DNA of 64,000 nt from a virus (taxonomy: Duplodnaviria; Heunggongvirae; Uroviricota; Caudoviricetes). The notes under the pieces were generated by a model, which saw only the letters and a program-made list of their open reading frames with translations, did not search any database and was not told where the DNA came from. Of the stretch, positions 14,988 through 63,544 are shown one piece after another; position 1 is the stretch's first letter; every line of letters starts with the position of its first letter. A program made the translations under genes and the position numbers. The stretch lies in IMG/VR virus record IMGVR_UViG_3300035698_009402, positions 51,659-115,658 of that record; one strand, given 5' to 3'.

Positions 14988-16598
14988 ATGAAAGTAGGTA
15001 TTGCACAATGCAATTTTGTTGTAGGGGATATCCCCGGCAACTATGAAAAAATAGTCAAAATTTGGGATGAGAAAGATAACGAAGATTTCGACGTTATTTT
15101 ATTTAGCGAGCTTTGCCTAACAGGTTATCCTGCACAGGATCTGCTGTTAGACAAGGCTTTTTTGTGTTTGGAGCGAGAATATCATTATAAATTACTTGCT
15201 AAACGTAATTATATGAAAACAAGCATTATTCTTGGATTATGCTTGTTGTCTCATACGTCTAAAATATATAATAGTGCTAATCTTATTTCTAATAAAGATT
15301 TAGGTAAAGCTATTGTAAAAACATATCTTCCTAACTATGATGTATTCGACGAAAAAAGATATTTCACTGGATATGGAATAAATGAGTACAATAATATCAT
15401 TGAAATAGTTGATAAAAAATTTGCAGTATTAATCTGTGAAGATGCTTGGGAAATAACTGACGAAGAATTACAAAAGTTATCTGGAGTATTTGGAATATTT
15501 ATCATTAATGCAAGTCCTTGGGATACTTCTAAAATCAACAATAGACTTAGATTAGCGAAGAAATTATCTAAGAAATTAGATTGTTTTGTGTTTTATGCAA
15601 ATCAAGTAGGTGGTCAAGATGAGTTAGTATTTGATGGTACTAGTTTCATTATGAATAACTTACAAGGTATTGAAGCTCAAGCTAAATCTTTTGAAGAAGA
15701 TTTTATTGAGTTAGATTTTAGTAAAACAAGCATTAAACATAATTACATGTTAGGGATAGGAAACTATTCTCAAATGCTAAGAAAAGCCTTAGTACTAGGT
15801 ACTCGCGATTATTTTAGAAAGAATAATTTTAATAAGGCAGTTATAGGTATTAGTGGTGGAGTTGATAGCGCCTTAGTTGCAGATATAGCTGTTGAAGCGT
15901 TGGGTGCAGAAAATGTTCTTGGAATTGGGATGATGACAAAATTTAATAGTCCTCTCACTTTAAAATTAGCTAGAGATTTATGCGTCCAACTAGGAATTAC
16001 TTATAAAGAAATGGATATTAGTAAAATCATTGACGTATTCAGTGATGAATTAGATTATTCCACAGTTGTTCCAAACTTAAAAATGAGCGGGGTACCTTAC
16101 GAGAACATCCAATCTCGAATTAGAGGAAACATTCTCATGGCGATTTCCAATTCACAAAATGCATTAGTATTAAGTACAGGTAATAAGTCAGAAGTGGCAA
16201 TGGGATATTCCACCCTGTATGGGGATATGGTAGGGGGATTTAATCCCTTAAAAGATGTATACAAAACAGATGTATTCAATTTATCTAGACTAAGCAATAA
16301 AATTCCTTCAGAGATTGTTACTAGACCTCCTACTGCGGAATTAGCAGAAAATCAATTAGATAGTGATAAATTACCTGAGTATAGTAAATTAGACGTTATA
16401 CTCAGTATGTATCTTGAAGGAAATAGTAATATTGAGCACGTTACCAGAAGTTATGGAAAAGAACTTGCAGAAAAAGTATATAAAAGCTTAATATTTAATG
16501 AGTATAAGAGACAACAGTCTTGTCCTGGTATTAGAGTTAGTACCAAACATTTGGGCAAAGACCGTCGTTTTCCAATCACTAATCAGTATAAAGGTTAA
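14988..16598 (+). CDS. nadE: glutamine-dependent NAD+ synthetase (N-terminal CN-hydrolase domain + C-terminal NAD synthase)
   Basis: 536 aa; PP-loop GISGGVDSALVA; N-terminal nitrilase-like domain; GGAG RBS. Confidence 0.8.
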   Translation: MKVGIAQCNFVVGDIPGNYEKIVKIWDEKDNEDFDVILFSELCLTGYPAQDLLLDKAFLCLEREYHYKLLAKRNYMKTSIILGLCLLSHTSKIYNSANLISNKDLGKAIVKTYLPNYDVFDEKRYFTGYGINEYNNIIEIVDKKFAVLICEDAWEITDEELQKLSGVFGIFIINASPWDTSKINNRLRLAKKLSKKLDCFVFYANQVGGQDELVFDGTSFIMNNLQGIEAQAKSFEEDFIELDFSKTSIKHNYMLGIGNYSQMLRKALVLGTRDYFRKNNFNKAVIGISGGVDSALVADIAVEALGAENVLGIGMMTKFNSPLTLKLARDLCVQLGITYKEMDISKIIDVFSDELDYSTVVPNLKMSGVPYENIQSRIRGNILMAISNSQNALVLSTGNKSEVAMGYSTLYGDMVGGFNPLKDVYKTDVFNLSRLSNKIPSEIVTRPPTAELAENQLDSDKLPEYSKLDVILSMYLEGNSNIEHVTRSYGKELAEKVYKSLIFNEYKRQQSCPGIRVSTKHLGKDRRFPITNQYKG

Positions 16599-16608
16599 GG
16601 AGATTAAA

Positions 16609-17796
16609 ATGAAATTAACAGAGCAAGAAATCGTAGAACGTACAGATAAATATTTTGTACGTACTAAAAAAGTAGTAGATCACTTCAATAAAGAAATTAT
16701 CGTAAAATATGCAGTATTTATGCGCACAGACGTTCTTGCTGCACTAAATCCTTGTATAGATTTTATTAAGGAACATTGTCCAGATGCTATTATTGAACGT
16801 AAGTTCAATGAGGGGGAGTTTGTTCCCAGTGAAAAGCCTATGATGCATATTACTGGAAAGTTTAGTGATCTAGTTATGTTAGAAACACTACTACTCCAGA
16901 AATTAGGTTTTACGTGTCTTTGTGCGTATAACGCTTATAATATGTCTAAAGCACTTCCACAAGTAGCGTTCATGGATATGCACGCACGTCATGGAACTGG
17001 TGAAGATATGAACCACCTTGCTACTTATGGATGTAGTGTTGGCAGTAAGGTAGCACAGCAAGAAGGTTCCGAAGGTTTTCTGGGAGGTGCGCAAGATATT
17101 ACTGCCAAATACTTCGATAAACTACACGGAATGGGTACTATGCCCCACGCTCTAGTAGGTCTTGCTAAAACTATGTTTCCAGAACGTAATAGTATGGTTG
17201 CAGCAGTTGAGATGTATCTAGAGGCTATGCCTGAAGAAACTAATATTGTAGCACTTGTAGATTATGATGGTAAAGAAATCACAGACGCTTTAGCAGTAGC
17301 CGACTATATGTTAAGTAATCATCCTGAAAAACAATTAAGCATTAGACTAGATACTCATGGTGGTAGATTCTGTGAAACATTAGATTATGCTTCAAGCGTA
17401 AATGTTGTTAGTCAACATATTAGTGATGGTAAAATGACTGAGTATGAAATTATCAGAACAGTTATGGGTGAGACTGCTTTTATGATGGATAGTAATAATA
17501 TTATTAAGGATAAGATCAGAAAGCTTATGTTTGGTACAGGAGTGTCTGCTGCAAACATTATTAATATGAGAAATTACTTGGATGGAGAGGGCTACAATGA
17601 TGTTAGTATTGTAGCGAGTAGTGGATTTGATGTAATCAAATGTGGAGTATTCCGTGAAGCAAACGTTCCAGTGAATATGATTGGTACAGGTAGTTTTCTG
17701 CCTAAGAAATATACTGAAACATATGCTACAGCAGATATTATCGAATATAATGGAATTAAGAGTGTTAAAGTTGGAAGGGAATTTTTAAATGACTAA
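16609..17796 (+). CDS. pncB: nicotinate/nicotinamide phosphoribosyltransferase-family enzyme (NAPRTase-like)
   Basis: 396 aa from ATG 16609 (AAGGAGA RBS); size and motifs consistent with type II PRTase of the NAPRT/NAMPT family; sits between nadE and Nudix/NMNAT. Confidence 0.6.
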   Translation: MKLTEQEIVERTDKYFVRTKKVVDHFNKEIIVKYAVFMRTDVLAALNPCIDFIKEHCPDAIIERKFNEGEFVPSEKPMMHITGKFSDLVMLETLLLQKLGFTCLCAYNAYNMSKALPQVAFMDMHARHGTGEDMNHLATYGCSVGSKVAQQEGSEGFLGGAQDITAKYFDKLHGMGTMPHALVGLAKTMFPERNSMVAAVEMYLEAMPEETNIVALVDYDGKEITDALAVADYMLSNHPEKQLSIRLDTHGGRFCETLDYASSVNVVSQHISDGKMTEYEIIRTVMGETAFMMDSNNIIKDKIRKLMFGTGVSAANIINMRNYLDGEGYNDVSIVASSGFDVIKCGVFREANVPVNMIGTGSFLPKKYTETYATADIIEYNGIKSVKVGREFLND

Positions 17797-27225: not shown

Positions 27226-27645
27226 ATGAAAGATAAAAAATTTTATAAAATATGCGCTTCTTTTTATATAAATATATTAATAGCTAAACTTAAGGAAGAA
27301 AATTTATCTCCATATGATAGTAAAAATCTTCCGGAAGATTTTTACGATCTTATGTGTATGGTATATTATGAGGCAGTAAACAAAGAAGCTGCTAAACTTA
27401 TACTAGAAGAAATGTGGAATACTAATAAAATTCCCGGGGTTATAGCCTATGAAAAAGATTTATATGTAGAGTTTATTGATACTTCTAATTTTATTACTGA
27501 ATTAATTAATAACAATCTTGATAAAATTGAGAAATATAATAACGGTAATGAAAAAATTCTAAAGTGGTTTCTAGGTCAAGTTATGCAAGAGTTTAGAGGT
27601 AAAATAAATCCCAAAGAAATAGAATTACAAACAAAAAACTACTAG
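27226..27645 (+). CDS. GatB/YqeY-domain protein
   Basis: C-terminal ILKWFLGQVMQEFRGKINPKEI resembles the YqeY/GatB C-terminal motif (gfLmGqvMk.tkGkAnp). Confidence 0.45.
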   Translation: MKDKKFYKICASFYINILIAKLKEENLSPYDSKNLPEDFYDLMCMVYYEAVNKEAAKLILEEMWNTNKIPGVIAYEKDLYVEFIDTSNFITELINNNLDKIEKYNNGNEKILKWFLGQVMQEFRGKINPKEIELQTKNY

Positions 27646-28042: not shown

Positions 28043-28735
28043 ATGAATAAAGAACAATTAGAAAAAGATATCCTAGACGAACAACTATTAGAATACTTAC
28101 CAAATAAAAACGTAGTTTTTGCGGTTTTACACGGTAGCAGGGCTTACGGATTAAGTACTAAAGATAGTGATTATGATGTTAAATTCGTCTGGATTGAAGA
28201 TTATGAAACCTATACAGGAATATCAGAAGTAAAAAATACTGGATATAGCGAACAAAAGGATAATGTAGACGTAAGCGGTTGGGAATTGAAGCATTTTCTT
28301 AATTTAGTTAGAAAAAATAATATGACTACTATGGAAACTTTATTTTCTCCTATACTAAGTGTTGATATAGATAACTATTTAACCTTAATTTTAGAAGTTG
28401 CAGCAAACTTTAATAGAAAAAGTTTAGGTATTCAGTATCATAAAGCTAGTAAGAGTTATTACTACAAATACTTAGAAACAAGTAAACTTAAATATTTAAT
28501 TAACTCTTTTAGATGTTTTAATAACGCAGTATATATAAGAAAAAATTGTAAAATACCACCTATTACTGCTAAAGAATGTTATGATAATATCCTTCTTAAG
28601 GGGGTACATTATGATATAACTAACTTTAATACTTTATTAGATGATTTTAATTATGAGTGGTACTCTACAGATCATCAAATAGATACTAAAGTATTAAACG
28701 ATATATTTAGGGAAACAGCTCTTAGCAGTAAATAA
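28043..28735 (+). CDS. Pol-beta-superfamily nucleotidyltransferase-like protein
   Basis: VVFAVLHGSRAYGLSTKDSDYDVKFV = hG[GS]x9-13Dh[DE]h NTase signature. Confidence 0.5.
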   Translation: MNKEQLEKDILDEQLLEYLPNKNVVFAVLHGSRAYGLSTKDSDYDVKFVWIEDYETYTGISEVKNTGYSEQKDNVDVSGWELKHFLNLVRKNNMTTMETLFSPILSVDIDNYLTLILEVAANFNRKSLGIQYHKASKSYYYKYLETSKLKYLINSFRCFNNAVYIRKNCKIPPITAKECYDNILLKGVHYDITNFNTLLDDFNYEWYSTDHQIDTKVLNDIFRETALSSK

Positions 28736-28778: not shown

Positions 28779-28863
28779 TGGGAAGTGGCGGAACTGGTAG
28801 ACGCGCTAGACTGTTAATCTTGTGCCGTAAGGCTTGGGGGTTCGAGACCCTCCTTCTCAGCCA
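28779..28863 (+). tRNA. type-II (Leu-like body) tRNA with Asn-type anticodon loop CUGUUAA (GUU), anticodon assignment uncertain
   Basis: TGGGAAGTGGCGGAACTGGTAGACGCG closely resembles a bacterial tRNA-Leu 5' half; anticodon stem CTAGA/TCTTG (one mismatch), loop CTGTTAA; 12-nt variable hairpin GCC-GTAA-GGC; T-arm GGGGG-TTCGAGA-CCCTC; G + CCA. Confidence 0.5.
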
Positions 28864-28871
28864 AAAATTAT

Positions 28872-28958
28872 TCCTGGGTGGCAGAGCGGTAATGTTCCTC
28901 ACTGTTAATGAGTGGACTTCGTAAGAAGCGTAGGTTCGATCCCTACCCCTAGGAGCCA
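28872..28958 (+). tRNA. type-II tRNA, anticodon loop CUGUUAA (GUU) or alternative fold UAA (Leu); irregular acceptor/T junction
   Basis: Acceptor TCCTGGG/CCTAGGA + G + CCA with one extra nt after the T-stem; variable hairpin CTTC-GTAA-GAAG; T-arm GTAGG-TTCGATC-CCTAC. Confidence 0.4.
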
Positions 28959-28966
28959 AAATTTAT

Positions 28967-29041
28967 AGTAGAGAATCCGATTGGCGAGGAACGCGCCTGA
29001 TTAGCGTGTGGTAGAGGGTTCGATTCCCTCCTCTACGACCA
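28967..29041 (+). tRNA. tRNA, anticodon loop CUGAUUA -> GAU (Ile?), pyrimidine at 37
   Basis: Acceptor AGTAGAG/CTCTACG (A1-G72 mismatch) + A + CCA; anticodon stem CGCGC/GCGTG; T-arm GAGGG-TTCGATT-CCCTC. Confidence 0.5.
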
Positions 29042-29061: not shown

Positions 29062-29475
29062 ATGACTCGTATTAATATAGTTGATCCTATAGAATTAATG
29101 GATCAACATTTAGTAGCTGAATATAGAGAAATCTTGATGATAGGATCTTCATTACAACGGTCTTTAAGAGGTAAGAGTTGGAATAAGAATAAGATACCTG
29201 ACTCATTCAGATTAAATAAAGGTCATGTATTATTTTTCTACGATAAAGGTCTATATTTACAAAAACGGTATGAACAATTAAGAAATGAAATGATTAGGAG
29301 AGGAATGTCTCCTAATCCCGATAGAAAATTCAATGTAGAGTGTTTTCCTAATTTCATATATAGAAATGATTGGACTCCTTCCGACAAAGATAGAAACATT
29401 ATTAGAGAACGATTATCTTTTAGGATATCAGAAAAACCTAATTGGTATAGATATGAGGGTAAATTAGTTGAGTAG
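29062..29475 (+). CDS. denV: pyrimidine-dimer DNA glycosylase (T4 endonuclease V family)
   Basis: MTRINIVDPIELMDQHLVAEYREI closely matches T4 EndoV [24 protein letters not shown]; start trimmed to ATG 29062 to clear the tRNA at 28967-29041. Confidence 0.7.
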   Translation: MTRINIVDPIELMDQHLVAEYREILMIGSSLQRSLRGKSWNKNKIPDSFRLNKGHVLFFYDKGLYLQKRYEQLRNEMIRRGMSPNPDRKFNVECFPNFIYRNDWTPSDKDRNIIRERLSFRISEKPNWYRYEGKLVE

Positions 29476-30914: not shown

Positions 30915-32135
30915 ATGTTACTTAGAGGAAAACACGCAGAAATTAAAACTTGGACAGAAGGTGTTCATTTGGACGGTAATACAGTAGGTCAGCTAATTAA
31001 GACCGCTAGTTTGCCTATAATTTATAAACATATTGCTGTGATGCCTGATGCTCATTTAGGTATTGGTAGTACTGTGGGTAGTGTTATTCCGACAATTAAA
31101 GCGATTATTCCTGCTGCTGTCGGGGTGGATATTGGTTGTGGCATGGTAGCTGTAAAAACTACTTTACATGCTGATGATTTACCTGATAGTTTAAAAGAAT
31201 TAAGAATGGAAATAGAAGCTAATATTCCTCATGGAGGTCCTGGCAAGAAGGGAAGTTGGGGAGATACTAGATATTCTAGTTGGGAACATCGTCCTACTAA
31301 TATTAGTGTTAAATCTAATAAATTTGCTAAGACTTTCTTAAATATTAGAAAGCATAATCAAATTGCTGAAGCAGATAAAAATAATGCTAGTACTCAATTA
31401 GGTACTTTAGGGAGTGGTAATCACTTCGTAGAAGTGTGTTTAGATGAAAAATCTAATGTATGGGTTATGCTACATAGCGGATCTAGGGGCATTGGTAATA
31501 GAATTGGAAGATACTTTATTCAGAAAGCTATTAGAGAATGTGAAAACTTAGATATTAAATTAGTTGATAGTAACTTAGCTTATTTAATAGAAGGTGGGAA
31601 GCATTTTGACGATTACATTGAAGGAGTTAATTGGGCACAGAACTATGCTGCTTTCAACAGAGAGATAATGATGGAGCAGGCTTTGTTATCTTTGAAAAAT
31701 ATCATAAAAGTACCTTTTACTTATGATGTTAAAGGAATTAATTGTCATCATAACTATGTAACTAAAGAGCGTCATTTTGGAGAAGATGTATATGTAACTA
31801 GAAAGGGAGCTGTTAACGCAGAATTCGGTAAGTTAGGTATTATTCCAGGAAGTATGGGTACTAAAAGTTATATTGTTAGAGGAAAAGGCAACGCTGATTC
31901 TTTTAATAGTTGCTCTCATGGGGCTGGTAGGGTATACTCTAGAAGTCATGCAAAGAAAAATTTCACTTTGGAAGATCATTTAAAAGCTACTGAAGGAGTA
32001 GAATGTCGTAAAGATATTGGAGTAATTGATGAAACTCCTGCTGCTTATAAGAATATAGATGAAGTAATGGCTGCGCAGACAGATTTAGTAGATATCGTAC
32101 ATACTTTAAAACAAGTTGTATGTGTGAAAGGATAA
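30915..32135 (+). CDS. rtcB: RtcB RNA 3'-phosphate/2',3'-cyclic phosphate ligase
   Basis: 406 aa; HSGSRGIGNRIG, CHHNYV, SCSHGAGR motifs typical of RtcB. Confidence 0.75.
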   Translation: MLLRGKHAEIKTWTEGVHLDGNTVGQLIKTASLPIIYKHIAVMPDAHLGIGSTVGSVIPTIKAIIPAAVGVDIGCGMVAVKTTLHADDLPDSLKELRMEIEANIPHGGPGKKGSWGDTRYSSWEHRPTNISVKSNKFAKTFLNIRKHNQIAEADKNNASTQLGTLGSGNHFVEVCLDEKSNVWVMLHSGSRGIGNRIGRYFIQKAIRECENLDIKLVDSNLAYLIEGGKHFDDYIEGVNWAQNYAAFNREIMMEQALLSLKNIIKVPFTYDVKGINCHHNYVTKERHFGEDVYVTRKGAVNAEFGKLGIIPGSMGTKSYIVRGKGNADSFNSCSHGAGRVYSRSHAKKNFTLEDHLKATEGVECRKDIGVIDETPAAYKNIDEVMAAQTDLVDIVHTLKQVVCVKG

Positions 32136-32136
32136 T

Positions 32137-32799
32137 ATGTTTAAATATAATTTACATCAGGAAGTAGAAACCAACGATAAAGGTCGAGATTTTATCGTTG
32201 GTGATCTTCATGGTTGTTATGATGCACTAATAACTCAAATGAAATTTGTTAATTTTAACCAGCAAATAGATAGACTTTTTTCAGTTGGAGACCTAGTAGA
32301 TAGAGGTACTCAAAATATAGAGTGTTTATCTTTATTAAATAAACCTTGGTTTTACGCAGTTATGGGTAACCATGATGAGTTTTTTTGGCAAGGCGTATTA
32401 GAGGATTATAGAATAAATCTTTGGGTGGCTAACGGAGGGGGTTGGGCGGCAGATATAGATATGTGTACGCTATCAGGGTATGCAGAAAAAGTAAAAAATC
32501 TCCCCTTAGCTATTACTATTGATAATAAAATTGGTATATGTCATGCTGAACCCGGTATTGCTTATAAACATAATAATAGTTGGAAACAGTATGTTATGGA
32601 CCCTACTACTCAACAAAATAAGATGTGGGGTAGATATGCAGTTACAAATAGTGTAAAAGCTGAATATACAGATATTATTCGTAGTTACCACGGACATACC
32701 CCTTTAAAAATAGTAAAAGATTTAGGACAAGCAAGATTTATTGATACAGGAGCTTGTTTTGGGTATCACCTAACCTTAGAGGAAATTGATTATACATGA
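32137..32799 (+). CDS. PPP-family serine/threonine phosphatase (lambda-phosphatase/ApaH-like)
   Basis: GDLHGCYD, GDLVDRG, GNHDE metallophosphatase signature. Confidence 0.65.
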   Translation: MFKYNLHQEVETNDKGRDFIVGDLHGCYDALITQMKFVNFNQQIDRLFSVGDLVDRGTQNIECLSLLNKPWFYAVMGNHDEFFWQGVLEDYRINLWVANGGGWAADIDMCTLSGYAEKVKNLPLAITIDNKIGICHAEPGIAYKHNNSWKQYVMDPTTQQNKMWGRYAVTNSVKAEYTDIIRSYHGHTPLKIVKDLGQARFIDTGACFGYHLTLEEIDYT

Positions 32800-33199: not shown

Positions 33200-33216
33200 A
33201 AATTAAAAATTTACAT

Positions 33217-33245
33217 TTGCTTTAAGCAGTAAATTTTAATATAAT
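33217..33245 (+). promoter_or_regulatory. promoter TTGCTT-N17-TATAAT driving the tmRNA
   Basis: Exact consensus; predicted TSS ~33252 at the start of the GC-rich tmRNA region. Confidence 0.55.
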
Positions 33246-33251
33246 AATGAA

Positions 33252-33665
33252 AGTGACGTTGAGGAAATATTTGTTGAAACAAATTGAACGATAGACAACA
33301 CCTCGGGGCAGTACCGAGCGCCTCCACCACGAACACACATTCGGGTCGTAATATCGGATAGATATACTTCGAGTGTTGCTCTGATAGGTCGCAGAATGTG
33401 TGTTTTTGATGGGGGCGAAATAGAATCGACTGATATTTATTAGGTAAGTTGAGAATATTTTTTAGTCACTACGATAAACGCAAATGATAATACTTCATAT
33501 GCAATGGCTGCGTAAGTAGTCAAGCGGGGTCAGTAGCCGTACCTAGCACCAGAAATCGGCTACATTTATAATAACTCATATGGCCAGTATTTAGCAATGC
33601 GCTATCGAAGGGGCCACTCTGTCTGACAGCAGGGAAGAAATATTTGTCAAAATATTTAGATATTG
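33252..33665 (+). ncRNA. ssrA: two-piece (circularly permuted) tmRNA precursor: acceptor piece ending CCA at 33329, intervening segment 33330-33410, coding piece from 33411 with tag ORF 33480-33515 (A)NDNTSYAMAA*
   Basis: Consensus promoter 33217-33245; T-arm CTCGG-GGCAGTA-CCGAG + CGCCTCC + A + CCA at 33302-33329; downstream GGGGGCGAAATAGAATCGAC (tmRNA 5' acceptor motif, complementary to CGCCTCC); GCA AAT GAT AAT ACT TCA TAT GCA ATG GCT GCG TAA tag frame; intervening ACACACATTC/GAATGTGTGT helix; GC-rich, ORF-free; 3' boundary approximate. Confidence 0.6.
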
Positions 33666-36524: not shown

Positions 36525-36602
36525 GCGTGAGTGGGCAAATTGGTAAAGTCACTGGTTTTAGACGCCAGGGTTCTGAGGGTTCGAGTCCCTCCTTACGCAC
36601 CA
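36525..36602 (+). tRNA. tRNA with anticodon UAG (Leu-decoding) but type-I body (6-nt variable loop)
   Basis: Acceptor GCGTGAG/CTTACGC + A + CCA; anticodon arm CTGGT-TTTAGAC-GCCAG; T-arm GAGGG-TTCGAGT-CCCTC. Confidence 0.55.
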
Positions 36603-36697: not shown

Positions 36698-36783
36698 CCT
36701 AGTGTGGCGGAACGGCATACGCAGCAGACTTAAAATCTGTGGTCAGAGATGGCATAAGAGTTCGATTCTCTTCACTAGGACCA
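36698..36783 (+). tRNA. tRNA-Leu (anticodon UAA), type II
   Basis: Acceptor CCTAGTG/CACTAGG + A + CCA; anticodon arm GCAGA-CTTAAAA-TCTGT; 15-nt variable arm; T-arm AAGAG-TTCGATT-CTCTT; 86 nt. Confidence 0.7.
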
Positions 36784-37109: not shown

Positions 37110-37184
37110 GTCTTTGTAGCATTATGGTAATGCGTCCGCCTCTAAAACGGAAGAAAACGGGTTCAATTCCTGTCAAAGACACCA
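37110..37184 (+). tRNA. tRNA with anticodon loop CUCUAAA -> CUA (candidate amber suppressor); alternative fold has a 9-nt loop
   Basis: Acceptor GTCTTTG/CAAAGAC + A + CCA; D-arm GCAT/ATGC; anticodon stem TCCG/CGGA with a C-A closing mismatch; T-arm ACGGG-TTCAATT-CCTGT. Confidence 0.5.
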
Positions 37185-37293
37185 AATAAGGAGAGTAATT
37201 ATGGAATACGATATCTAGACTTATATACCGCCTTAACTAATTTATTATGTAATGGCTAAAAATATTAAATAAATTAGAAAAGGAAATTATATA

Positions 37294-37692
37294 ATGAGTT
37301 ATAAATTAAAAATAAAAGCAAAACATTTAGCTGAAGAAGCTAAAATAATTAAGCATGAAGAAAGAAAAACTAAACTTTATGCTAGAAAACTAAGAGAACT
37401 ACAAAAACCAGTAACTATATTAGAAAAGAAATTACAAGACTTACATTACCATAGAATATGGGATGTTAGACGAGAAGTAAGAGCTACTAATTTAGCTAGA
37501 GCATATATTTCAGGTAAAAATTACTCTCAAGTAGAAAGTAATAATCACTATCATGTGTGGAATACTACTGGAGTAAGTAATAAAGTTTACTACCAGCCAG
37601 ATATTCAGTTATTGAACAGAGTTCGTAATATGGTATCTAAATATAGTGAAAAAACTGATATAAAAGTTATTATAGACTGGTTACAAACTTAA
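37294..37692 (+). CDS. hypothetical basic protein
   Basis: 132 aa; followed by a GC-rich hairpin (37696-37716). Confidence 0.45.
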   Translation: MSYKLKIKAKHLAEEAKIIKHEERKTKLYARKLRELQKPVTILEKKLQDLHYHRIWDVRREVRATNLARAYISGKNYSQVESNNHYHVWNTTGVSNKVYYQPDIQLLNRVRNMVSKYSEKTDIKVIIDWLQT

Positions 37693-37695
37693 AAA

Positions 37696-37716
37696 GCGGG
37701 GAGTTTAACTCCCCGC
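37696..37716 (+). terminator. GC-rich hairpin (terminator or RNA-processing structure) between the CDS at 37294 and the tRNA at 37722
   Basis: GCGGGGAG-TTTAA-CTCCCCGC; no T-run on the plus strand (the A-run upstream would give a T-run on the minus strand). Confidence 0.3.
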
Positions 37717-37721
37717 TACAT

Positions 37722-37798
37722 GCCCAAGTAGGCCAATTGGCAGAGTCGCTAGATTCAAAACCTAGATGTTGCGGGTTCGAGTCCCGCTTTGGGTACCA
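37722..37798 (+). tRNA. tRNA (Trp-like D-arm); anticodon ambiguous: CAA with an A-C closing mismatch, or UCA-containing 9-nt loop
   Basis: Acceptor GCCCAAG/TTTGGGT + A + CCA; D-loop CAATTGGCAGAG like tRNA-Trp; anticodon stem CTAG/CTAG with loop ATTCAAAAC; T-arm GCGGG-TTCGAGT-CCCGC. Confidence 0.5.
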
Positions 37799-39492: not shown

Positions 39493-39586
39493 GCTCCTAT
39501 AGTTTAAAAGTAAAACAGCAAGCTTATACCTTGTATTAGCGGTAGATGACCGCATGATGTTGGTTCAAATCCAGCTGGGAGTACCA
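39493..39586 (+). tRNA. unusually long (94 nt) tRNA; anticodon arm GCAAG-CUUAUAC-CUUGU gives UAU (Ile/AUA?) with a 24-nt variable region containing hairpin GCGG-UAGAUGA-CCGC
   Basis: Acceptor GCTCCTA/TGGGAGT + A + CCA; D-arm GTTT-AAAAGTA-AAAC; T-arm GTTGG-TTCAAAT-CCAGC. Confidence 0.4.
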
Positions 39587-47302: not shown

Positions 47303-47523
47303 TGTCTCTATTTATTATATGGTATATGTCAGGATTAATATTATCTGTATTATCGGTTAGACTAAGTTTCGGATATTTTAGTATGAACTTATTTGGTTTT
47401 AGTTTACTATTCGCATTTTTTGGGCCTATTGTGTTACCTATTCTACTAATAGATAGTGGAAAAAAGTTTATGCGATTACTAAAGGGTAACGATAATGAAG
47501 CCTTATATTCACGCAAGAATTAG
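47302..47523 (+). CDS. small membrane protein
   Basis: 73 aa, two TM helices; ATGTCT start overlapping the SPFH stop. Confidence 0.4.
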   Translation: MSLFIIWYMSGLILSVLSVRLSFGYFSMNLFGFSLLFAFFGPIVLPILLIDSGKKFMRLLKGNDNEALYSRKN

Positions 47524-47710
47524 TGCTAAGAAGTTTGGTGGATTGCCGAAAGATTATTTGGCAATCCACGACTTCATTGATAGTAGTAAAGTCTGTTATC
47601 CCGATATGAAACATAGAGCTATTCTACATTCTAGTTTTGGGTGTTTTTTAGTAGAACAAATGTTCGGTACTACGATTATAAATAGTGACGGCAAAGAAAT
47701 CAGCAGTTAG
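47495..47710 (+). CDS. hypothetical protein
   Basis: 71 aa ORF. Confidence 0.3.
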   Translation: MKPYIHARISAKKFGGLPKDYLAIHDFIDSSKVCYPDMKHRAILHSSFGCFLVEQMFGTTIINSDGKEISS

Positions 47711-47767
47711 AGACGTAGCCGAAGAACATATTATGGAAGATTTAGGTTTTATTCCAACTGTGGAAAA

Positions 47768-47989
47768 ATGGTTGAAAAATTTACCGACAGAAAGATGGAT
47801 GTACGGTGGAGCGAAAGGAAAAGTAGATTGACTGTAAAAGGTATTAAAGAAGTTATTTGTACTAATTGTAGTAGTACGTTAGAATATGAAGAAACAGATG
47901 TTTACTCTACCCGTGATTACTTAGGAGATAGTAATAATGATAAATGTTTAGAGTGTCCCGTGTGTAATAAAGGATTTGTATTAAAATGA
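47768..47989 (+). CDS. zinc-ribbon hypothetical protein
   Basis: CTNCSS ... CLECPVC paired CxxC motifs. Confidence 0.4.
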   Translation: MVEKFTDRKMDVRWSERKSRLTVKGIKEVICTNCSSTLEYEETDVYSTRDYLGDSNNDKCLECPVCNKGFVLK

Positions 47990-48651
47990 AATTAGAAAAA
48001 GTAGTATTTACCGGCGTAGATACGTCTACTGATTTAGATGCTTTAATAGAAATTTGTCAAAAATCAGTAATTCCTGTAGAAATAGCTTTGTTATTTAGCT
48101 ATACCAGATCAGGTAAAGATAATAGATATATGACACAAGAAGAAATTGGAAACACGGTTAGAAAGTTAAAAAATTCCGTAAAGTTAGCTATTCATTTATG
48201 TGGAAAAGCTAGTACTGAATTTATGACAAACTGTTTAGACGCTGATTTATCTATGTTCGATACGGTACAATGTAATAACATTAGAGTACTGGAAAATGAA
48301 TTAGATATGCAATTTGTAGATAATGTGCACATTCCTTATAATCAAAAAGGTTACAAAGAATGTGCAAGAGTAGTTACTAAATACCCTAAGATTAGTGTAT
48401 TACAGGATAGAAGTGGTGGTAGAGGTGTAGCCAGTACTTTCTTAGTTCCTGTTATGGGCGTACAAAACGGTTATGCCGGAGGATTAGGGCCTAGTAATAT
48501 TTTTTCTAAATTACAAGAAATTGATACATTAGTTGATGAAAATTACGTCACTTGGATTGATATGGAGGGTAATGTTAGAGATAGTAAAGATTTATTTGAT
48601 TTAACTAAAGTAGGTCAAGTAGTAGAAAAGGTAAATGAATACCATGATTAA
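47986..48651 (+). CDS. hypothetical protein
   Basis: 221 aa; ATGA overlap. Confidence 0.45.
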   Translation: MKLEKVVFTGVDTSTDLDALIEICQKSVIPVEIALLFSYTRSGKDNRYMTQEEIGNTVRKLKNSVKLAIHLCGKASTEFMTNCLDADLSMFDTVQCNNIRVLENELDMQFVDNVHIPYNQKGYKECARVVTKYPKISVLQDRSGGRGVASTFLVPVMGVQNGYAGGLGPSNIFSKLQEIDTLVDENYVTWIDMEGNVRDSKDLFDLTKVGQVVEKVNEYHD

Positions 48652-54621: not shown

Positions 54622-55095
54622 AAAAAGAAATGGCGCGTGTGCCAGAAGATTATGGTGACATAATTCAAAGGGATAAGTCCTTCCCGTGTTACTGCAAAGT
54701 AGCATAAAGCACGCAAGTCCCAATTTGTCGATGAACCAATCATCGAAGTATCGGTTAAAACGGTACTAGGGGCAGACAGTTAAGTAGATAGTTCTTTGGT
54801 AAGAATGTGGTGTAGGTAATACTGGCATCTAATAGGAGGTGGAACTCCGGCTAACAATCCAACTTAACAAAAGCTGACTTAATAAGGGATAGATACGGCG
54901 ACAGTCCTTGATTGTCTCAATAATGTGCGAGTGATAATAAACGAGTGCGAGTATCAATATTAGAGGTATACGTTAGAAGCGCAATCTTAAAATATAGTTG
55001 AGTAGGTGGATAACTGAAAAGCATGAGGTGTGTAGTATTTTGTACCTAACAAGGTATGAAGCGACAGAGGTAGCACATCTTTCGGCACATAACCC

Positions 55096-55171
55096 TTGCG
55101 GGTAGGCTAACGGTATAGCCATTTGTCTTTGAAACAAACGTATGCGGGTTCGATCCCCGTTTCGCAAACCA
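55096..55171 (+). tRNA. tRNA-Gln (anticodon UUG), U1; isolated inside the ORF-poor block
   Basis: Acceptor TTGCGGG/TTCGCAA + A + CCA; D-arm GGCT/AGCC; perfect anticodon arm TTTGT-CTTTGAA-ACAAA; T-arm GCGGG-TTCGATC-CCCGT. Confidence 0.65.
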
Positions 55172-55501
55172 TAAAAAACGCAAAGACTACCTCGATAAAT
55201 AACGAAAGTGCTTTAATGCAACACCGTAAGGAATGTTGTCGCTCAAAGATCGCAAGTTGGAGAGTGTTATTAGTACGAAAATCATAAGAGTTAGCGACTC
55301 CTAACAGCTGTAAAAGGTTGATGAAAATAGGACTAATGAGTAGTTATTTATGACAGTGCGCAAGCGATGCACTTTAAAAAACGAAAGCATAGAAGATAGA
55401 TAGTCAGCGGAAGCGGTTATCTGGATAAGCAAGGAACCTCGTAAGGGATAATCTTGTTAAGACTTCTACTAAAAGGTATAATCTCAGCCTTTATTAAAAG
55501 A

Positions 55502-60717: not shown

Positions 60718-60966
60718 ATGTCTGAAGATTACAAGACAGCCTTAGCATACTTTATTAAGTCAGACGAAGCATCTATGGATACTAGACAAGCCTTTCTAAA
60801 ATTATCCAATAAAGAATACGAGACAAGAGTAAAAGTACAGATGATTGAGATAGGTAAACATTTTTGGTATTCTAACACGGTTACAAAAAGAAGAAGTATT
60901 GATTCTAAAAATATAGAAGTTGTTGATACTGAAAGGAAACAAATTGTTAACACAAACGCAGTTTGA
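60718..60966 (+). CDS. hypothetical protein
   Basis: 82 aa ORF. Confidence 0.4.
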   Translation: MSEDYKTALAYFIKSDEASMDTRQAFLKLSNKEYETRVKVQMIEIGKHFWYSNTVTKRRSIDSKNIEVVDTERKQIVNTNAV

Positions 60967-61267
60967 TAAATAGGTAACGAAGTTACGTTCCGGGGAGTAC
61001 AAACAAGGAATAGAATATCTTAATAGGGATAACAGGTATTGTTATTTGGGGGTTTTAGCTGAAACACTAGAATTACCTAAGAAAAATGTAGGTTATATAA
61101 CTTATTATAAAATATCTGAAGAAAAAGAAGTAGTGGTGGATTTAGAAAGTAAGTGGCTTACAGAAAGTATGGAGAGAGAATTAGTAGGATTAAACGACAG
61201 AGATAGAAAATCTTTTAACTATATAACAGATTGGCTAGAAAGGAATAAGAGTGAGATAGTAAGATGA
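60944..61267 (+). pseudogene. paralog of the 63224-63544 gene with an in-frame TAG replacing the conserved Trp codon (pseudogene or amber-readthrough gene)
   Basis: TTG-LTQTQFDK-TAG-VTKLRSGEYKQG...YCYLGVLAETL vs the paralog MLTQTQFNKWVTKLRSGEYKQG...YCSLGVLAETL; TAG at 60971-60973 aligns with TGG; the ORF track only calls 61046-61267. Confidence 0.35.
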
Positions 61268-63015: not shown

Positions 63016-63224
63016 TGACGTTTTTAATAAAATTTCTACAAAATTTTATCGGTTTTACCCTAATCATAGGATTGTTAGTTGGAGGTATTTTGTTATTTAT
63101 ATTTGTAATAGCTGATATAGCTTCAATTATAGGAGGATATACTGTTCTTATTATTCCGTTTATTATAATATCTGCGGGCGCATATCATGCAATAGTAACA
63201 GAACTTGAAAAAGAAGGTAGATAA
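63015..63224 (+). CDS. small membrane protein
   Basis: 69 aa, two TM helices. Confidence 0.35.
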   Translation: MTFLIKFLQNFIGFTLIIGLLVGGILLFIFVIADIASIIGGYTVLIIPFIIISAGAYHAIVTELEKEGR

Positions 63225-63544
63225 TGTTAACACAAACGCAGTTTAATAAATGGGTAACGAAGTTACGTTCCGGGGAATACAAACAGGGACGAACAAGATT
63301 ATTGAATGATAATTGTTATTGCAGTTTAGGAGTATTAGCTGAAACTCTTAATTTATCTAAAAGAAGAAGTATTATTTTTACAGAAACCTACTTATTCGAA
63401 AATGATGCTATTAGTTTAAGTATAAGATATGTACCTAAATCTTGGCAAGAAATATTAATTCGTATGAATGATAAACAAGGTAAGTCTTTTTCAGAAATCG
63501 CAGATTTTTTAGAGGAAAATAAAAAAGAATATGTACAAAATTGA
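63224..63544 (+). CDS. hypothetical protein (intact paralog of 60944-61267)
   Basis: 106 aa; N-terminal 40 aa about 80% identical to the upstream paralog. Confidence 0.45.
   Translation: MLTQTQFNKWVTKLRSGEYKQGRTRLLNDNCYCSLGVLAETLNLSKRRSIIFTETYLFENDAISLSIRYVPKSWQEILIRMNDKQGKSFSEIADFLEENKKEYVQN

What the first reader, a model, noticed from the sequence alone, without database searches (positions are those of the whole stretch)
37110..37184. tRNA with an apparent CUA anticodon (candidate amber suppressor)
The cloverleaf is otherwise regular (7-bp acceptor, D-arm GCAU/AUGC, T-arm, A73, CCA). Its anticodon arm UCCG-C/CUCUAAA/A-CGGA places C-U-A at positions 34-36 with U33 and A37, closed by a C-A mismatch. 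A CUA anticodon reads UAG. TAG is used as a stop at least at 29473 and 44207. An in-frame TAG replaces a conserved Trp codon in the paralog at 60944-61267. Suppressor tRNAs mark phages that recode stops late in infection, so this is worth checking even though bulk coding here uses the standard code.
Basis: seen in the sequence. Interest (0 to 1): 0.55.

Follow-up and report, generated by a model that had tools for sequence, protein, structure and literature searches.

The report
Suppressor tRNA wired to a UAG switch
The CUA-anticodon tRNA is real, but rather than marking a recoded genome it appears to be the first part of a widespread, undescribed phage module in which reading through one UAG in a tiny leader gene switches on the neighbouring protein gene.

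Summary
37110-37184 is a well-formed tRNA (Rfam 61.4 bits) with anticodon CUA, a C31·A39 mismatch, A73 and an encoded CCA. The window uses TAG as an ordinary terminator, and the one in-frame TAG (60971, opposite a conserved Trp) is a young change in a small paralog.

The tRNA belongs to a conserved module:
- tRNA(CUA)
- Shine-Dalgarno plus mini-ORF, M-x(1-7)-UAG-x(2-6)-Pro-Pro-stop (window: MEYDI-UAG-TYIPP*, 37201-37236)
- a hairpin whose 5' arm abuts that stop and masks the ribosome-binding site of a ~130-aa helical protein (37294-37692)

Across 88 loci, 73 have the tRNA upstream. The leader pattern occurs in 52 of 68 distinct upstream regions, and in none when TAA or TGA replaces TAG. Pro-Pro-stop is in frame with the UAG in 52 of 53 cases, with free wobble variation. 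The anti-SD pairing is cognate-specific (p = 4e-15). Two cultured standard-code phages carry the module.

Best reading (inferred, untested): readthrough carries the ribosome to a Pro-Pro-stop arrest site, which melts the hairpin and turns the partner gene on. The partner's function and the inserted amino acid are unknown. I found no prior description.

The parts
37110..37184 (+). tRNA with anticodon CUA (C34 U35 A36 = 37143-37145), C31·A39 mismatch, A73, encoded CCA
   Evidence: ARAGORN; Rfam 61.4 bits with one non-standard pair; MFE cloverleaf. There are 52 distinct homologs with covarying stems and an invariant YUCUAAA/C loop.
37188..37193 (+). Shine-Dalgarno (AAGGAG) of the leader mini-ORF, 7 nt before its ATG and 3 nt after the tRNA's CCA
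   Evidence: Sequence. An SD-like motif precedes the leader ATG in nearly all loci (column 6).
37201..37236 (+). Leader mini-ORF: ATG GAA TAC GAT ATC TAG(37216-37218) ACT TAT ATA CCG CCT TAA = MEYDI-UAG-TYIPP-stop
   Evidence: Conserved in the MAFFT alignment of 43 spacers. The pattern occurs in 52 of 68 distinct upstream regions, 0 with TAA or TGA in place of TAG, shuffles 0.015, one other hit in 1.89 Mb. Pro-Pro-stop is in frame with the TAG in 52 of 53 cases, with all four wobble bases used.
37231..37246 (+). Anti-SD arm (CCTTAACTAATTTATT). It overlaps the last Pro codon and the TAA of the leader.
   Evidence: MFE of 37228-37299 pairs it with 37268-37283 (-11.6 kcal/mol, 51% of the ensemble, z -2.5). 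Removing the first 19 nt gives -2.5 kcal/mol. Family-wide cognate-specific duplexes.
37268..37283 (+). 3' arm of the hairpin (AATAAATTAGAAAAGG), including the AAGG of the partner gene's Shine-Dalgarno (37280-37286)
   Evidence: The SD core is covered by the best duplex in 50 of 50 distinct loci.
37294..37692 (+). Partner gene: 132-aa basic helical protein of unknown function (ELKIKAKHLA.E..II..EE / HR.WDVRRE.RATNLARAYI.G motifs)
   Evidence: Homologs lie next to a CUA tRNA in 73 of 88 loci. AF2 model pLDDT 86, long helical hairpin. No Pfam, NCBIfam, PHROG, PADLOC or PDB family. 2,945 representative clusters; the best 150 are all stand-alone, 108-184 aa.
37695..37717 (.). G+C-rich palindromic hairpin between the partner gene's stop and the next tRNA (Leu-CAA, 37722). 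Possible end or processing site of the module's transcript.
   Evidence: Terminator-like call on the - strand. Not followed up.
60944..61267 (+). DUF8296 paralog with an in-frame TAG (60971-60973) at the conserved Trp codon. Possible secondary substrate of the suppressor, or a young pseudogene.
   Evidence: The first 66 nt are about 92% identical to paralog 63224-63544, against about 38-73% for the rest.

Best explanation
The tRNA is a functional phage-encoded amber (UAG) suppressor whose conserved, cis-linked substrate is a UAG in a leader mini-ORF immediately downstream of it.

Proposed switch:
1. The tRNA, the leader and the partner gene sit head-to-tail on one strand. In the window no promoter- or terminator-like signal separates them.
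2. OFF state: a ribosome translating the leader meets UAG after 2-8 codons. If RF1 wins, it terminates there. That is a median of 16 nt upstream of the anti-SD arm, which is too far to disturb it. The hairpin keeps the partner gene's Shine-Dalgarno paired.
3. ON state: if the charged CUA tRNA decodes the UAG, the ribosome continues for 4-8 codons to (K/R/H)-Pro-Pro-stop. This C-terminal motif is known to arrest termination.
4. The arrested ribosome covers the anti-SD arm, which starts between -8 and +2 nt of the stop codon's end. This frees the SD, so the ~130-aa partner protein is translated.

Shown here: the tRNA, the conserved architecture, the in-frame codon-wise conservation after the UAG, the cognate-specific SD masking, and the absence of genome-wide recoding.

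Inferred: actual charging and decoding, arrest at Pro-Pro-stop in these hosts, the polarity of the switch, and co-transcription.

Unknown: the amino acid inserted, and what the partner protein does.
For: - tRNA quality and conservation. There are 52 distinct tRNAs. The loop is CUCUAAA in 44, UUCUAAA in 7 and UUCUAAC in 1. CCA is always encoded. Among the 50 parsed, acceptor and T stem positions are paired in at least 48 of 50, with 3-5 pair types at most positions.
- Linkage: loci were retrieved by the protein alone. 73 of 88 have a CUA tRNA upstream, usually 94-122 nt from the ATG, including loci where it is the only tRNA in up to 12 kb. Two more carry such a tRNA that ARAGORN missed.
- Leader: ATG-(1-11 codons)-TAG-(1-7 codons)-CCN-CCN-stop occurs in 52 of 68 distinct upstream regions, 0 with TAA or TGA substituted, 0.015 in shuffles, and once elsewhere in 1.89 Mb. 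It is the only such pattern in the 149.6-kb DSS3_MAL1 genome, and it lies exactly between its 'tRNA-Pyl' and the partner gene.
- Translation past the UAG: Pro-Pro-stop is in frame in 52 of 53 cases, with 12 synonymous Pro-Pro codon pairs. A purine follows the UAG in 36 of 37 leaders.
- SD masking: native duplex -12.9 kcal/mol, against -7.15 non-cognate and -5.6 shuffled; Wilcoxon 3.6e-15; SD covered in 50 of 50. Hairpins in the window, DSS3_MAL1 and BUCT-ZZ01 (z -2.5 to -3.7) collapse when the stalled-ribosome footprint is removed.
- Natural control: L059 lacks both the tRNA and the UAG, and a longer ORF ends ...VPP-stop at the same spot.
- Pro-Pro-stop arrests termination 'in all genetic contexts tested' (PMC3834316).
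Against: - Nothing here is experimental: no evidence of charging, readthrough or arrest in any host.
- RNAalifold on a plain sequence alignment finds no consensus structure. Support for the hairpin therefore rests on per-sequence duplex tests.
- In the AT-rich window, a longer fold that includes the leader prefers a different hairpin that masks the AUG instead of the SD. The logic is the same but the pairs differ.
- About a fifth of loci have a UAG leader with Pro-Pro but no stop directly after it (L050-L057, L064-66, L070, L074, L088, L106). Arrest at a stop is therefore not universal.
- Three leaders end in Pro-Pro-TAG.
- Why a phage would need a dedicated tRNA to switch on one gene is unexplained.
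- The polarity could be modulated by tmRNA or A-site cleavage at Pro-Pro-stop.
Confidence: 0.65

Rival explanations
1. Genome-wide or late-gene TAG recoding. The suppressor tRNA exists to decode in-frame TAGs in structural or lysis genes outside this window, as in crAss-like, Lak and other code-15 phages. The leader module would only time or tune it.
For: - Low G+C (31%), and a suppressor tRNA in a standard-code-looking region fits the proposed first step towards recoding (Borges et al.).
- There is one in-frame TAG at a conserved Trp codon.
- The window holds no clear structural genes, so late genes are unseen.
Against: - TAG ends about 11 of 87 long ORFs here.
- Only one credible in-frame TAG occurs in 64 kb. 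The other candidates are a frameshift and true stops.
- There is no TAG-bridging excess in 88 module-bearing loci.
- DSS3_MAL1 carries the same module yet has intact structural and replication genes in the standard code and uses TAG as a stop.
Confidence: 0.1
2. General low-level suppressor with a homeostat. The tRNA's main job is diffuse UAG readthrough: C-terminal extensions, rescue of nonsense mutations such as 60971, or interference with host or rival-phage termination. The leader senses suppression strength so that the partner protein can limit or boost it.
For: - The same architecture as the best explanation.
- The nonsense paralog is tolerated.
- No partner gene ends in TAG across 88 loci.
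Against: - No enrichment of TAG-terminated genes with long in-frame extensions was seen.
- The partner's function is unknown, so feedback is speculation.
- This rival differs from the best explanation only in what the output does.
Confidence: 0.15
3. The leader is translated only as far as the UAG. The Pro-Pro-stop and what follows are RNA-level features, and the tRNA is adjacent for an unrelated reason, for example as a processing signal that defines the mRNA 5' end.
For: - tRNAs often punctuate phage transcripts.
- CCNCC resembles an anti-SD.
- In a few loci (L081, L069) the Pro codons themselves pair with the SD.
Against: - The frame is kept in 52 of 53 cases and the wobble positions are free.
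- The adjacent tRNA always has anticodon CUA, and the first stop is always TAG, never TAA or TGA.
- tRNA and UAG are lost together in L059.
Confidence: 0.04
4. A decayed or accidentally mutated sense tRNA, for example Lys-CUU to CUA, with no function. The C·A mismatch would be a sign of decay.
For: - The nearest annotated phage tRNA is a Lys-CUU (79% over positions 6-61).
- There is a mismatch at 31·39.
Against: - The CUA anticodon is conserved in 52 distinct sequences with compensatory stem changes.
- The 31·39 mismatch is itself a recurrent family trait, found in 16 of 52.
- No consistent isotype ancestry emerges.
Confidence: 0.01
5. A pyrrolysine tRNA, as ARAGORN and GenBank records label it.
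For: Only the CUA anticodon.
Against: - It has G18G19, a T54-loop UUCAAUU, two bases between the acceptor and D stems, a 5-nt variable loop and an anticodon stem of at most 5 bp.
- No PylS or other synthetase was found among the larger ORFs.
Confidence: 0.005

Closest known systems
Phage-encoded suppressor tRNAs of stop-codon-recoded phages (crAss-like, Lak, Agate and others; Borges et al., bioRxiv 10.1101/2021.08.26.457843)
   Same: A phage-borne tRNA with anticodon CUA in a low-G+C phage that infects a standard-code host. It is expected to be charged by a host synthetase.
   Different: There is no sign of TAG as a sense codon in bulk coding. The tRNA is tied to one conserved UAG in a leader mini-ORF and to one partner gene. 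It occurs in phages from 31 to 60% G+C, including two cultured standard-code phages.
Leader-peptide translational attenuation by ribosome arrest (ermC/ermB, cat/cmlA leaders; SecM-secA; MifM-yidC2)
   Same: A short upstream ORF with its own SD, an arrest site placed so that the stalled ribosome melts a hairpin masking the downstream gene's SD, and the downstream gene switched on by stalling.
   Different: The input is not a drug, secretion or membrane insertion. It is whether a stop codon inside the leader is read through by a dedicated tRNA encoded next to it. The arrest element is a generic Pro-Pro-stop.
TnaC / tna operon and Pro-Pro-stop termination arrest (YbeL-PP model, PMC3834316)
   Same: Arrest of a ribosome carrying peptidyl-tRNA(Pro) with a stop codon in the A site. 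The regulatory consequence arises downstream.
   Different: TnaC senses free tryptophan and acts through Rho-dependent transcription termination. Here no ligand is implied, and the control is translational, through SD masking.
prfB (RF2) autoregulatory frameshift
   Same: An in-frame stop codon early in a reading frame is used as a sensor of the balance between termination and an alternative decoding event.
   Different: prfB uses a +1 frameshift at UGA within the regulated gene itself and needs no special tRNA. Here there is in-frame suppression at UAG in a separate leader by a cis-encoded tRNA.
Engineered amber-codon leader switches (TAG inserted in the tna/trp leader with an orthogonal tRNA(CUA); reviewed in PMC6412442, section 6)
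   Same: [quoted passage not shown]
   Different: Those switches are synthetic and act on transcription by unmasking a rut site. The module here is natural, widespread and translational.
trp/his/phe leader attenuation and T-box riboswitches
   Same: Cis-regulatory sensing of the availability or charging of a specific tRNA.
   Different: Those sense cellular sense-codon tRNAs and control amino-acid operons. Here the sensed tRNA is a suppressor supplied by the same genetic element.

Membership tests
Canonical elongator tRNA (Rfam RF00005) | Cloverleaf with a 7-bp acceptor, D-arm with G18G19, 7-nt anticodon loop with U33 and a purine at 37, T-arm with the T54-Psi55-C56 consensus; score above the gathering threshold | tested here: met
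   61.4 bits against a gathering score of 29, full-length alignment with one non-standard pair; ARAGORN call.
Amber suppressor tRNA | Anticodon CUA at positions 34-36 | tested here: met
   C34 U35 A36 in a CUCUAAA loop. The same holds in 52 distinct homologs.
Amber suppressor tRNA | Is aminoacylated and decodes UAG on the ribosome in competition with RF1 | not testable with these tools
   Indirect support only: the sequence after the linked UAG is conserved as in-frame codons (52 of 53 in frame, free wobble variation).
Amber suppressor tRNA | Defined amino-acid identity | tested here: inconclusive
   G1-C72 in 51 of 52 and A73 in 42 of 52. The nearest annotated phage tRNA is Lys-CUU. There is no consistent nearest isotype within the loci. 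tRNAscan-SE isotype models were not available.
tRNA-Pyl | Atypical fold: 6-bp anticodon stem, 3-nt variable loop, small D-loop lacking G18G19, one base between the acceptor and D stems (from established knowledge of tRNA-Pyl) | tested here: not met
   U8 A9, a D-loop UAUGGUA with GG, a 5-nt variable loop, and an anticodon stem of 4-5 bp.
tRNA-Pyl | Accompanied by pylS and pylBCD | tested here: not met
   None of the 20 larger window ORFs scanned against Pfam is a synthetase or a Pyl biosynthesis enzyme. The rest of the genome is unseen.
Stop-codon-recoded (code 15) phage | Many in-frame TAGs in conserved genes; TAG not used as a terminator; gene calls fragmented under the standard code | tested here: not met
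   TAG terminates about 11 of 87 long ORFs and there is one credible in-frame TAG. TAG bridges equal TGA bridges across 88 loci. Cultured carrier DSS3_MAL1 is contiguous in the standard code. Late genes of this particular genome are not available.
Leader-peptide translational attenuator (ermC / SecM / MifM type) | Short ORF with its own SD just upstream of the regulated gene | tested here: met
   SD 37188-37193 and ORF 37201-37236, ending 57 nt before the partner ATG. Conserved, with 37 distinct peptides.
Leader-peptide translational attenuator (ermC / SecM / MifM type) | RNA structure that masks the downstream SD and overlaps the footprint of a ribosome at the arrest site | tested here: met
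   The anti-SD begins between -8 and +2 nt of the end of the leader's stop codon. SD covered in 50 of 50. Native duplexes beat non-cognate ones at p = 3.6e-15. Folds with and without the footprint. RNAalifold on a sequence alignment failed.
Leader-peptide translational attenuator (ermC / SecM / MifM type) | Demonstrated ribosome arrest and induction of the downstream gene | not testable with these tools
   Only the sequence motif (K/R/H)-Pro-Pro-stop, which is known to arrest termination in E. coli (PMC3834316).
prfB-type autoregulation | Programmed +1 frameshift at an in-frame stop inside the regulated gene | tested here: not met
   The continuation after the UAG is in the zero frame (52 of 53), and the UAG lies in a separate mini-ORF.

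The most novel reading that the evidence does not exclude
A natural, widespread 'suppression-gated' genetic switch. Phages carry a dedicated amber-suppressor tRNA together with its own single-codon sensor, a UAG-containing arrest leader. Expression of a large uncharacterised protein family (at least 2,900 representative clusters) is therefore contingent on stop-codon readthrough. The partner protein may itself act on termination, the ribosome or the tRNA. That would give phages a self-contained timer or feedback loop on the meaning of UAG in a standard-code cell, and possibly the missing intermediate on the path to full TAG recoding.
Probability: 0.5. Interest if true: 0.9.

Novelty: new variant of a known kind. 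Interest (0 to 1): 0.85.

Why it matters
- **An unexplained class of phage tRNAs.** Suppressor tRNAs in phages have been explained only as tools of genome-wide recoding. CUA tRNAs in standard-code phages are routinely mislabelled 'tRNA-Pyl' and ignored. If this module works as inferred, it gives those tRNAs a concrete, testable function.
- **A new regulatory input.** It adds stop-codon readthrough by a cis-encoded tRNA to the repertoire of leader-peptide attenuation. It would be a natural counterpart of amber-codon switches that synthetic biologists built by design.
- **A large protein family to characterise.** It points to an uncharacterised phage protein family whose expression is tied to the decoding of UAG.
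- **Evolution of recoding.** It may bear on how stop-codon reassignment starts, because a suppressor would be maintained by selection before any structural gene depends on it.
- **Testable now.** Two cultured phages, one on the genetically tractable Synechococcus elongatus PCC 7942, make direct experiments possible.

Tried and rejected
- **Close relatives by DNA.** Megablast of 15 kb against deposited phages found nothing. An exact tRNA pattern in IMG/VR found nothing. A D-arm plus anticodon-loop pattern in metagenomes and genomes hit only a Met tRNA, two long 'Asn' tRNAs and one stretch with no tRNA call (L037); none was an orthologue.
- **Relatives through RtcB and the SPFH protein.** RtcB relatives are at most 55% identical, not syntenic, and have no CUA tRNA. 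The SPFH protein found nothing in IMG/VR.
- **Source contig.** Exact-protein look-ups found only a 681-nt fragment, so the rest of this genome could not be examined.
- **TAG 47708 as a readthrough site.** Rejected. The conserved second half of that protein is in the +1 frame.
- **TAG 27643 as a readthrough site.** Rejected. It is the natural end of a GatB/YqeY-domain protein.
- **Isotype by similarity.** Inconclusive, both within the window and within 38 other loci.
- **RNAalifold consensus of the leader-to-gene spacer.** Zero pairs, because register and loop length vary. Replaced by per-sequence duplex tests.
- **Promoter and terminator scan around the module.** Uninformative: fewer promoter-like sites than in shuffles.
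- **Literature.** Four literature searches (two on phage suppressor and CUA tRNAs, two on amber-codon leader peptides and readthrough) found no description of the module.
Full report
**1.

ARAGORN finds a 75-nt tRNA at 37110-37184 (+) with anticodon cta. It labels it 'Pyl' purely from the anticodon. Rfam's tRNA model scores it 61.4 bits (gathering score 29), tied fourth-highest of the 27 Rfam tRNA matches.

The model alignment is full length at maximal posterior probability, and the only non-standard pair is C31·A39. The MFE fold is the same cloverleaf (-19.5 kcal/mol, z -2.6). It leaves C·A open, so the loop is formally 9 nt with CUA still central.

- TAG ends the ORFs at 29473 and 44207.
- The small gene at 60944-61267 has TAG where its paralog at 63224-63544 has TGG. 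This is a Trp conserved in every homolog found, family DUF8296/PF26948.

**2. The window is not recoded**

The window is 31% G+C and looks like a jumbo-phage accessory region. It has 30 tRNAs, a permuted tmRNA, a GOLLD RNA, RtcB, NAD-salvage genes and an endolysin-like gene.

Among ORFs of at least 80 aa on the coding strands, 55 end in TAA, 21 in TGA and 11 in TAG. I listed every TAG with open frame on both sides. Three deserved a look:
- 27643 is the natural end of a GatB/YqeY-domain protein, followed by a separate small ORF.
- 47708 interrupts a phrog_8143 gene, but the conserved second half continues in the +1 frame. This is a 1-nt frameshift in an A-run, not readthrough.

The first 66 nt of the two paralogs are about 92% identical, against about 38-73% for the rest. 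The block was therefore homogenised recently and the TGG/TAG difference is young. Copy B keeps an SD, a TTG start and the family motifs. It is either a fresh pseudogene or a tolerated nonsense allele. One such case in 64 kb is weak evidence for recoding.

**3. Relatives were hard to find by DNA but easy by one protein**

No near relative exists in INPHARED or IMG/VR by DNA, RtcB or the SPFH protein. The source contig is not indexed.

The lineage-specific 132-aa protein just downstream of the tRNA (37294-37692) does have homologs. Their contigs were decisive.
- L041 (72% identical protein, syntenic 72.9-kb contig) has a CUA tRNA at the same place in the array.
- So do much more distant contexts whose arrays are otherwise different: L042, L044/45, L046 and L047.

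A protein-profile scan of IMG/VR returned 80 more loci. ARAGORN run on all 88 loci shows a CUA tRNA upstream of the gene in 73. It is the nearest upstream tRNA in 72, mostly 94-122 nt from the ATG. At least ten of these are loci where it is the only tRNA in up to 12 kb. Two 'exceptions' (L081, L089) do have a CUCUAAA/UUCUAAA-loop tRNA that ARAGORN missed.

**4. The tRNA family**

There are 52 distinct sequences. Their features are:
- **Anticodon loop:** CUCUAAA in 44, UUCUAAA in 7, UUCUAAC in 1. C34-U35-A36-A37 is therefore invariant. The A36-A37-A38 motif, which in bacteria directs i6A37 modification of tRNAs that read U-initial codons (my knowledge of MiaA), is present in 51 of 52.
- **Ends:** all have an encoded CCA. 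G1-C72 occurs in 51 and A73 in 42.
- **Stems** (50 parsed): acceptor and T stem positions are paired in at least 48 of 50, and D-stem pairs 1-3 in all 50 (pair 4 in 43). Most positions show 3-5 pair types.
- **Anticodon stem:** its terminal pairs are often non-Watson-Crick. 27·43 is paired in 24 of 50 and 31·39 in 35 of 50. C·A or A·C occurs at 31·39 in 14.

The window's C·A mismatch is therefore a family trait, not decay.

Isotype ancestry is unresolved. The nearest annotated phage tRNA is a Felixounavirus Lys-CUU, at 79% over positions 6-61. Within the loci, however, the nearest neighbour is scattered over 13 isotypes. From established identity rules in E. coli, a CUA tRNA with A73 and G1-C72 is most likely to be taken by LysRS, and less likely by GlnRS. 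That is inference only.

It is not tRNA-Pyl. It has G18G19, a normal T-loop, two bases between the acceptor and D stems and a 5-nt variable loop. No synthetase is found among the larger ORFs.

**5. The spacer is a leader mini-ORF with a conserved UAG**

Aligning 43 distinct spacers shows SD, ATG, a few variable codons, an invariant TAG column, and a conserved CC.CC block. In the window:

AAGGAG (37188-93) N7 ATG GAA TAC GAT ATC TAG ACT TAT ATA CCG CCT TAA (37201-37236) = MEYDI-UAG-TYIPP-stop.

A strict pattern, ATG-(1-11 sense codons)-TAG-(1-7 sense codons)-CCN-CCN-stop, gives these counts:

| Test | Result |
|---|---|
| Distinct 160-nt upstream regions with the pattern | 52 of 68 |
| Same pattern with TAA or TGA in place of TAG | 0 |
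| Mean hits per shuffle round | 0.015 |
| Occurrences elsewhere in 1.89 Mb (both strands) | 1 |

There are 37 distinct leader peptides:
- 2-8 codons come before the UAG and 4-8 after it.
- The base after the UAG is a purine in 36 of 37.
- The residue after the UAG is Ile or Val in 30.
- The residue before Pro-Pro is Lys, Arg or His in 29.
- The final stop is TAA in 28, TGA in 6 and TAG in 3.

The key test is. Searching for CCNCCN-stop in any frame within 45 nt after the TAG, it is in frame in 52 of 53 cases. Both Pro codons use all four wobble bases, in 12 codon pairs. The stretch after the UAG is thus conserved as codons, which is what selection on a translated readthrough product predicts.

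**6. The leader's stop abuts an anti-SD hairpin**

For 50 distinct loci I computed the best duplex between two segments: the one from the first Pro codon to 22 nt past the stop, and the 23 nt before the partner ATG.

| Pairing | Mean duplex energy (kcal/mol) |
|---|---|
| Native (cognate) | -12.9 |
| Non-cognate, from other loci | -7.15 |
| Shuffled | -5.6 |

The native v non-cognate difference gives Wilcoxon p = 3.6e-15. Native beats at least 95% of non-cognate partners in 32 of 50 loci. The SD core is covered in 50 of 50. The paired arm starts between -8 and +2 nt of the end of the stop codon.

Flanks covary between lineages, for example CCTTGTATC/GATACAAGG, CCCTAATTGGG/CCCAATTAGG and TTTCCGTTG/CAACGGAGA.

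Folding from the Pro codons to the ATG gives exactly this hairpin. Deleting the ~19 nt that a ribosome with the stop in its A site would occupy collapses it:

| Source | Hairpin (kcal/mol) | z | After removing the footprint |
|---|---|---|---|
| Window | -11.6 (51% of ensemble) | -2.5 | -2.5 |
| DSS3_MAL1 | -18.5 | -3.7 | -3.6 |
| BUCT-ZZ01 | -24.1 | -3.5 | -8.2 |

The UAG lies a median of 16 nt (range 8-25) before the first paired anti-SD base. That is beyond the roughly 10 nt a ribosome covers 3' of its A-site codon (established toeprint geometry).

Two caveats apply. RNAalifold on a plain MAFFT alignment finds nothing, because registers differ. A longer fold of the AT-rich window prefers an alternative arm, 37239-53 with 37286-300, which masks the AUG instead.

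**7. Mechanism (inferred)**

- Termination at the UAG leaves the hairpin intact, so the partner gene is OFF.
- Suppression carries the ribosome to (K/R/H)-Pro-Pro-stop. [quoted passage not shown]
- The arrested ribosome sits on the anti-SD, the SD is freed, and the partner gene is ON.

This is ermC/SecM/MifM-type attenuation with a new input. A natural control fits: L059 has neither the tRNA nor a UAG, and a longer upstream ORF ends ...VPP-stop at the same position.

A minority class (L050-L057, L064-66, L070, L074, L088, L106) has the UAG and Pro-Pro but no stop right after. There the readthrough frame runs on through the anti-SD. That would open the hairpin by transit instead of by arrest. 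I examined this class only by eye.

**8. Not genome-wide recoding**

In the 88 loci, stop codons with at least 60 open codons on both sides number 98 for TAG and 98 for TGA. No partner gene ends in TAG.

Two cultured phages carry the full module:
- Synechococcus phage BUCT-ZZ01: tRNA, leader MGGDAS-UAG-INLKPP*, partner gene.
- Roseophage DSS3_MAL1: annotated 'tRNA-Pyl', leader MKS-UAG-IRPPP*, and a perfect TCTCCTTGAT/ATCAAGGAGA anti-SD pair.

DSS3_MAL1 (149.6 kb, 60% G+C) is annotated contiguously in the standard code. Terminase, polymerase, capsid and a 5.4-kb tape-measure gene are intact. It uses TAG as a stop, for example at the end of pth. Its only leader-like pattern genome-wide is the one in the module.

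I cannot exclude in-frame TAGs in the unseen late genes of the window's own genome.

**9. The partner protein**

The AF2 model is confident (pLDDT 86). It shows a long antiparallel helical hairpin (residues 3-35 and 41-73) plus short C-terminal helices. Conserved charged residues include K6, K8, K10, E15, E22, E23, K25, H53, R54, R59, E61, R63, R69, E81 and R109.

The family is very large. It has at least 545 clusters at 90% identity, all named 'hypothetical'. It has 2,945 representatives at 50% identity. The best 150 are all 108-184 aa, with no fusions. Its function is unknown. A role on the ribosome, RF1 or the tRNA is attractive but untested.

**10. Prior knowledge**

Suppressor tRNAs are well described in recoded phages and occasionally in their standard-code relatives. 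CUA tRNAs in standard-code jumbo phages are mentioned in passing as 'tRNA-Pyl'. Amber codons in leader peptides exist as engineered switches (PMC6412442).

Four full-text literature searches (two on phage suppressor and CUA tRNAs, two on amber-codon leader peptides and readthrough) found no description of a natural tRNA(CUA)-leader-partner module. The library lacks most subscription journals, so absence is not proof.

**11. Verdict**

- The tRNA is real and almost certainly a functional amber suppressor.
- The recoding interpretation is not supported by the available sequence.
- What is there is a conserved, statistically unambiguous module. Its most economical reading is a suppression-gated translational attenuator.
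- I put confidence that the module exists at about 0.97, and confidence in the mechanism as stated at about 0.65.
- I rate it a new variant of a known kind (leader-peptide attenuation; phage suppressor tRNA) and of high interest.

Noticed in passing
window 55023-55490 (GOLLD), with tRNA-Gln(UUG) 55096-55171 inside it: A full-length GOLLD RNA (169.7 bits) with an embedded tRNA lies about 11 kb downstream of the last tRNA of the main array.
   Followed up: no
window 33213-33564: A tmRNA gene of the permuted/two-piece (alpha-type) kind (85 and 74 bits). Cultured module carrier DSS3_MAL1 also encodes a tmRNA and a peptidyl-tRNA hydrolase near its tRNA array. This is of possible relevance because Pro-Pro-stop arrest recruits tmRNA in E. 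coli.
   Followed up: partly
window 28779-28863 and 28871-28958; also L039:6997-7082, L040:3954-4038, L041:738-825: 'tRNA-Asn' (GUU) genes of 85-88 nt with a long, type-II-like variable arm recur in several unrelated phage tRNA arrays. Bacterial tRNA-Asn is normally type I.
   Followed up: partly
window 39493-39586; L041:13476-13567: tRNA-Ile(UAU) of 92-94 nt with a long extra arm or insertion after the anticodon stem, conserved between the window and its relative L041.
   Followed up: no
window 36525-36602 and 37722-37798: tRNA-Leu(UAG) and tRNA-Leu(CAA) with short (type I) variable loops, whereas Leu(UAA) at 36698-36783 has the normal long arm. ARAGORN found no tRNA-Met/fMet (CAU) among the 30 tRNAs in the window.
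   Followed up: no
window 28967-29041: A tRNA-like sequence found by Rfam (42.4 bits) but not by ARAGORN. Its anticodon loop reads CUGAUUA (GAU, with U at position 37).
   Followed up: no
window 47495-47990: A phrog_8143-family gene is split by a 1-nt frameshift in an A-run (about 47690-47700). The N-terminal half stops at TAG 47708, and the conserved C-terminal half (SAVRDVAEEHIMEDLGFIPTVEKWL...) is in the +1 frame. This could be a sequencing error, a pseudogene or a programmed frameshift.
   Followed up: partly
window 60944-61010 v 63224-63290: The first 66 nt of two otherwise diverged DUF8296 paralogs are about 92% identical. This suggests recent gene conversion or a nucleotide-level constraint on the N-terminal block.
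   Followed up: partly
L048:336-412, L085:122-196, L114 and L117 (just upstream of their leaders): A subgroup of the module's tRNAs has an apparent 8-nt anticodon loop (CCCCUAAU/C or CCUCUAAC) without the usual U33 context. In the same loci the leader's second stop is also TAG (..PP-TAG).
   Followed up: partly
L050-L057, L064-L066, L070, L074, L088, L106 (leaders upstream of the partner gene): Variant leaders keep the UAG and a Pro-Pro but lack a stop directly after it. The readthrough frame continues through the anti-SD arm towards the partner start codon.
   Followed up: partly
window 27226-27645, 28043-28735, 30915-32799, 14988-17796: A cluster of RNA-repair and translation-related accessory genes surrounds the tRNA array: a stand-alone GatB/YqeY-domain protein, an RlaP nucleotidyltransferase, RtcB ligase with a Metallophos phosphatase, and NAD synthetase plus a phosphoribosyltransferase.
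   Followed up: no
window 37695-37717: A 10-bp G+C-rich palindromic hairpin lies directly after the partner gene's stop codon and 4 nt before tRNA-Leu(CAA).
   Followed up: no
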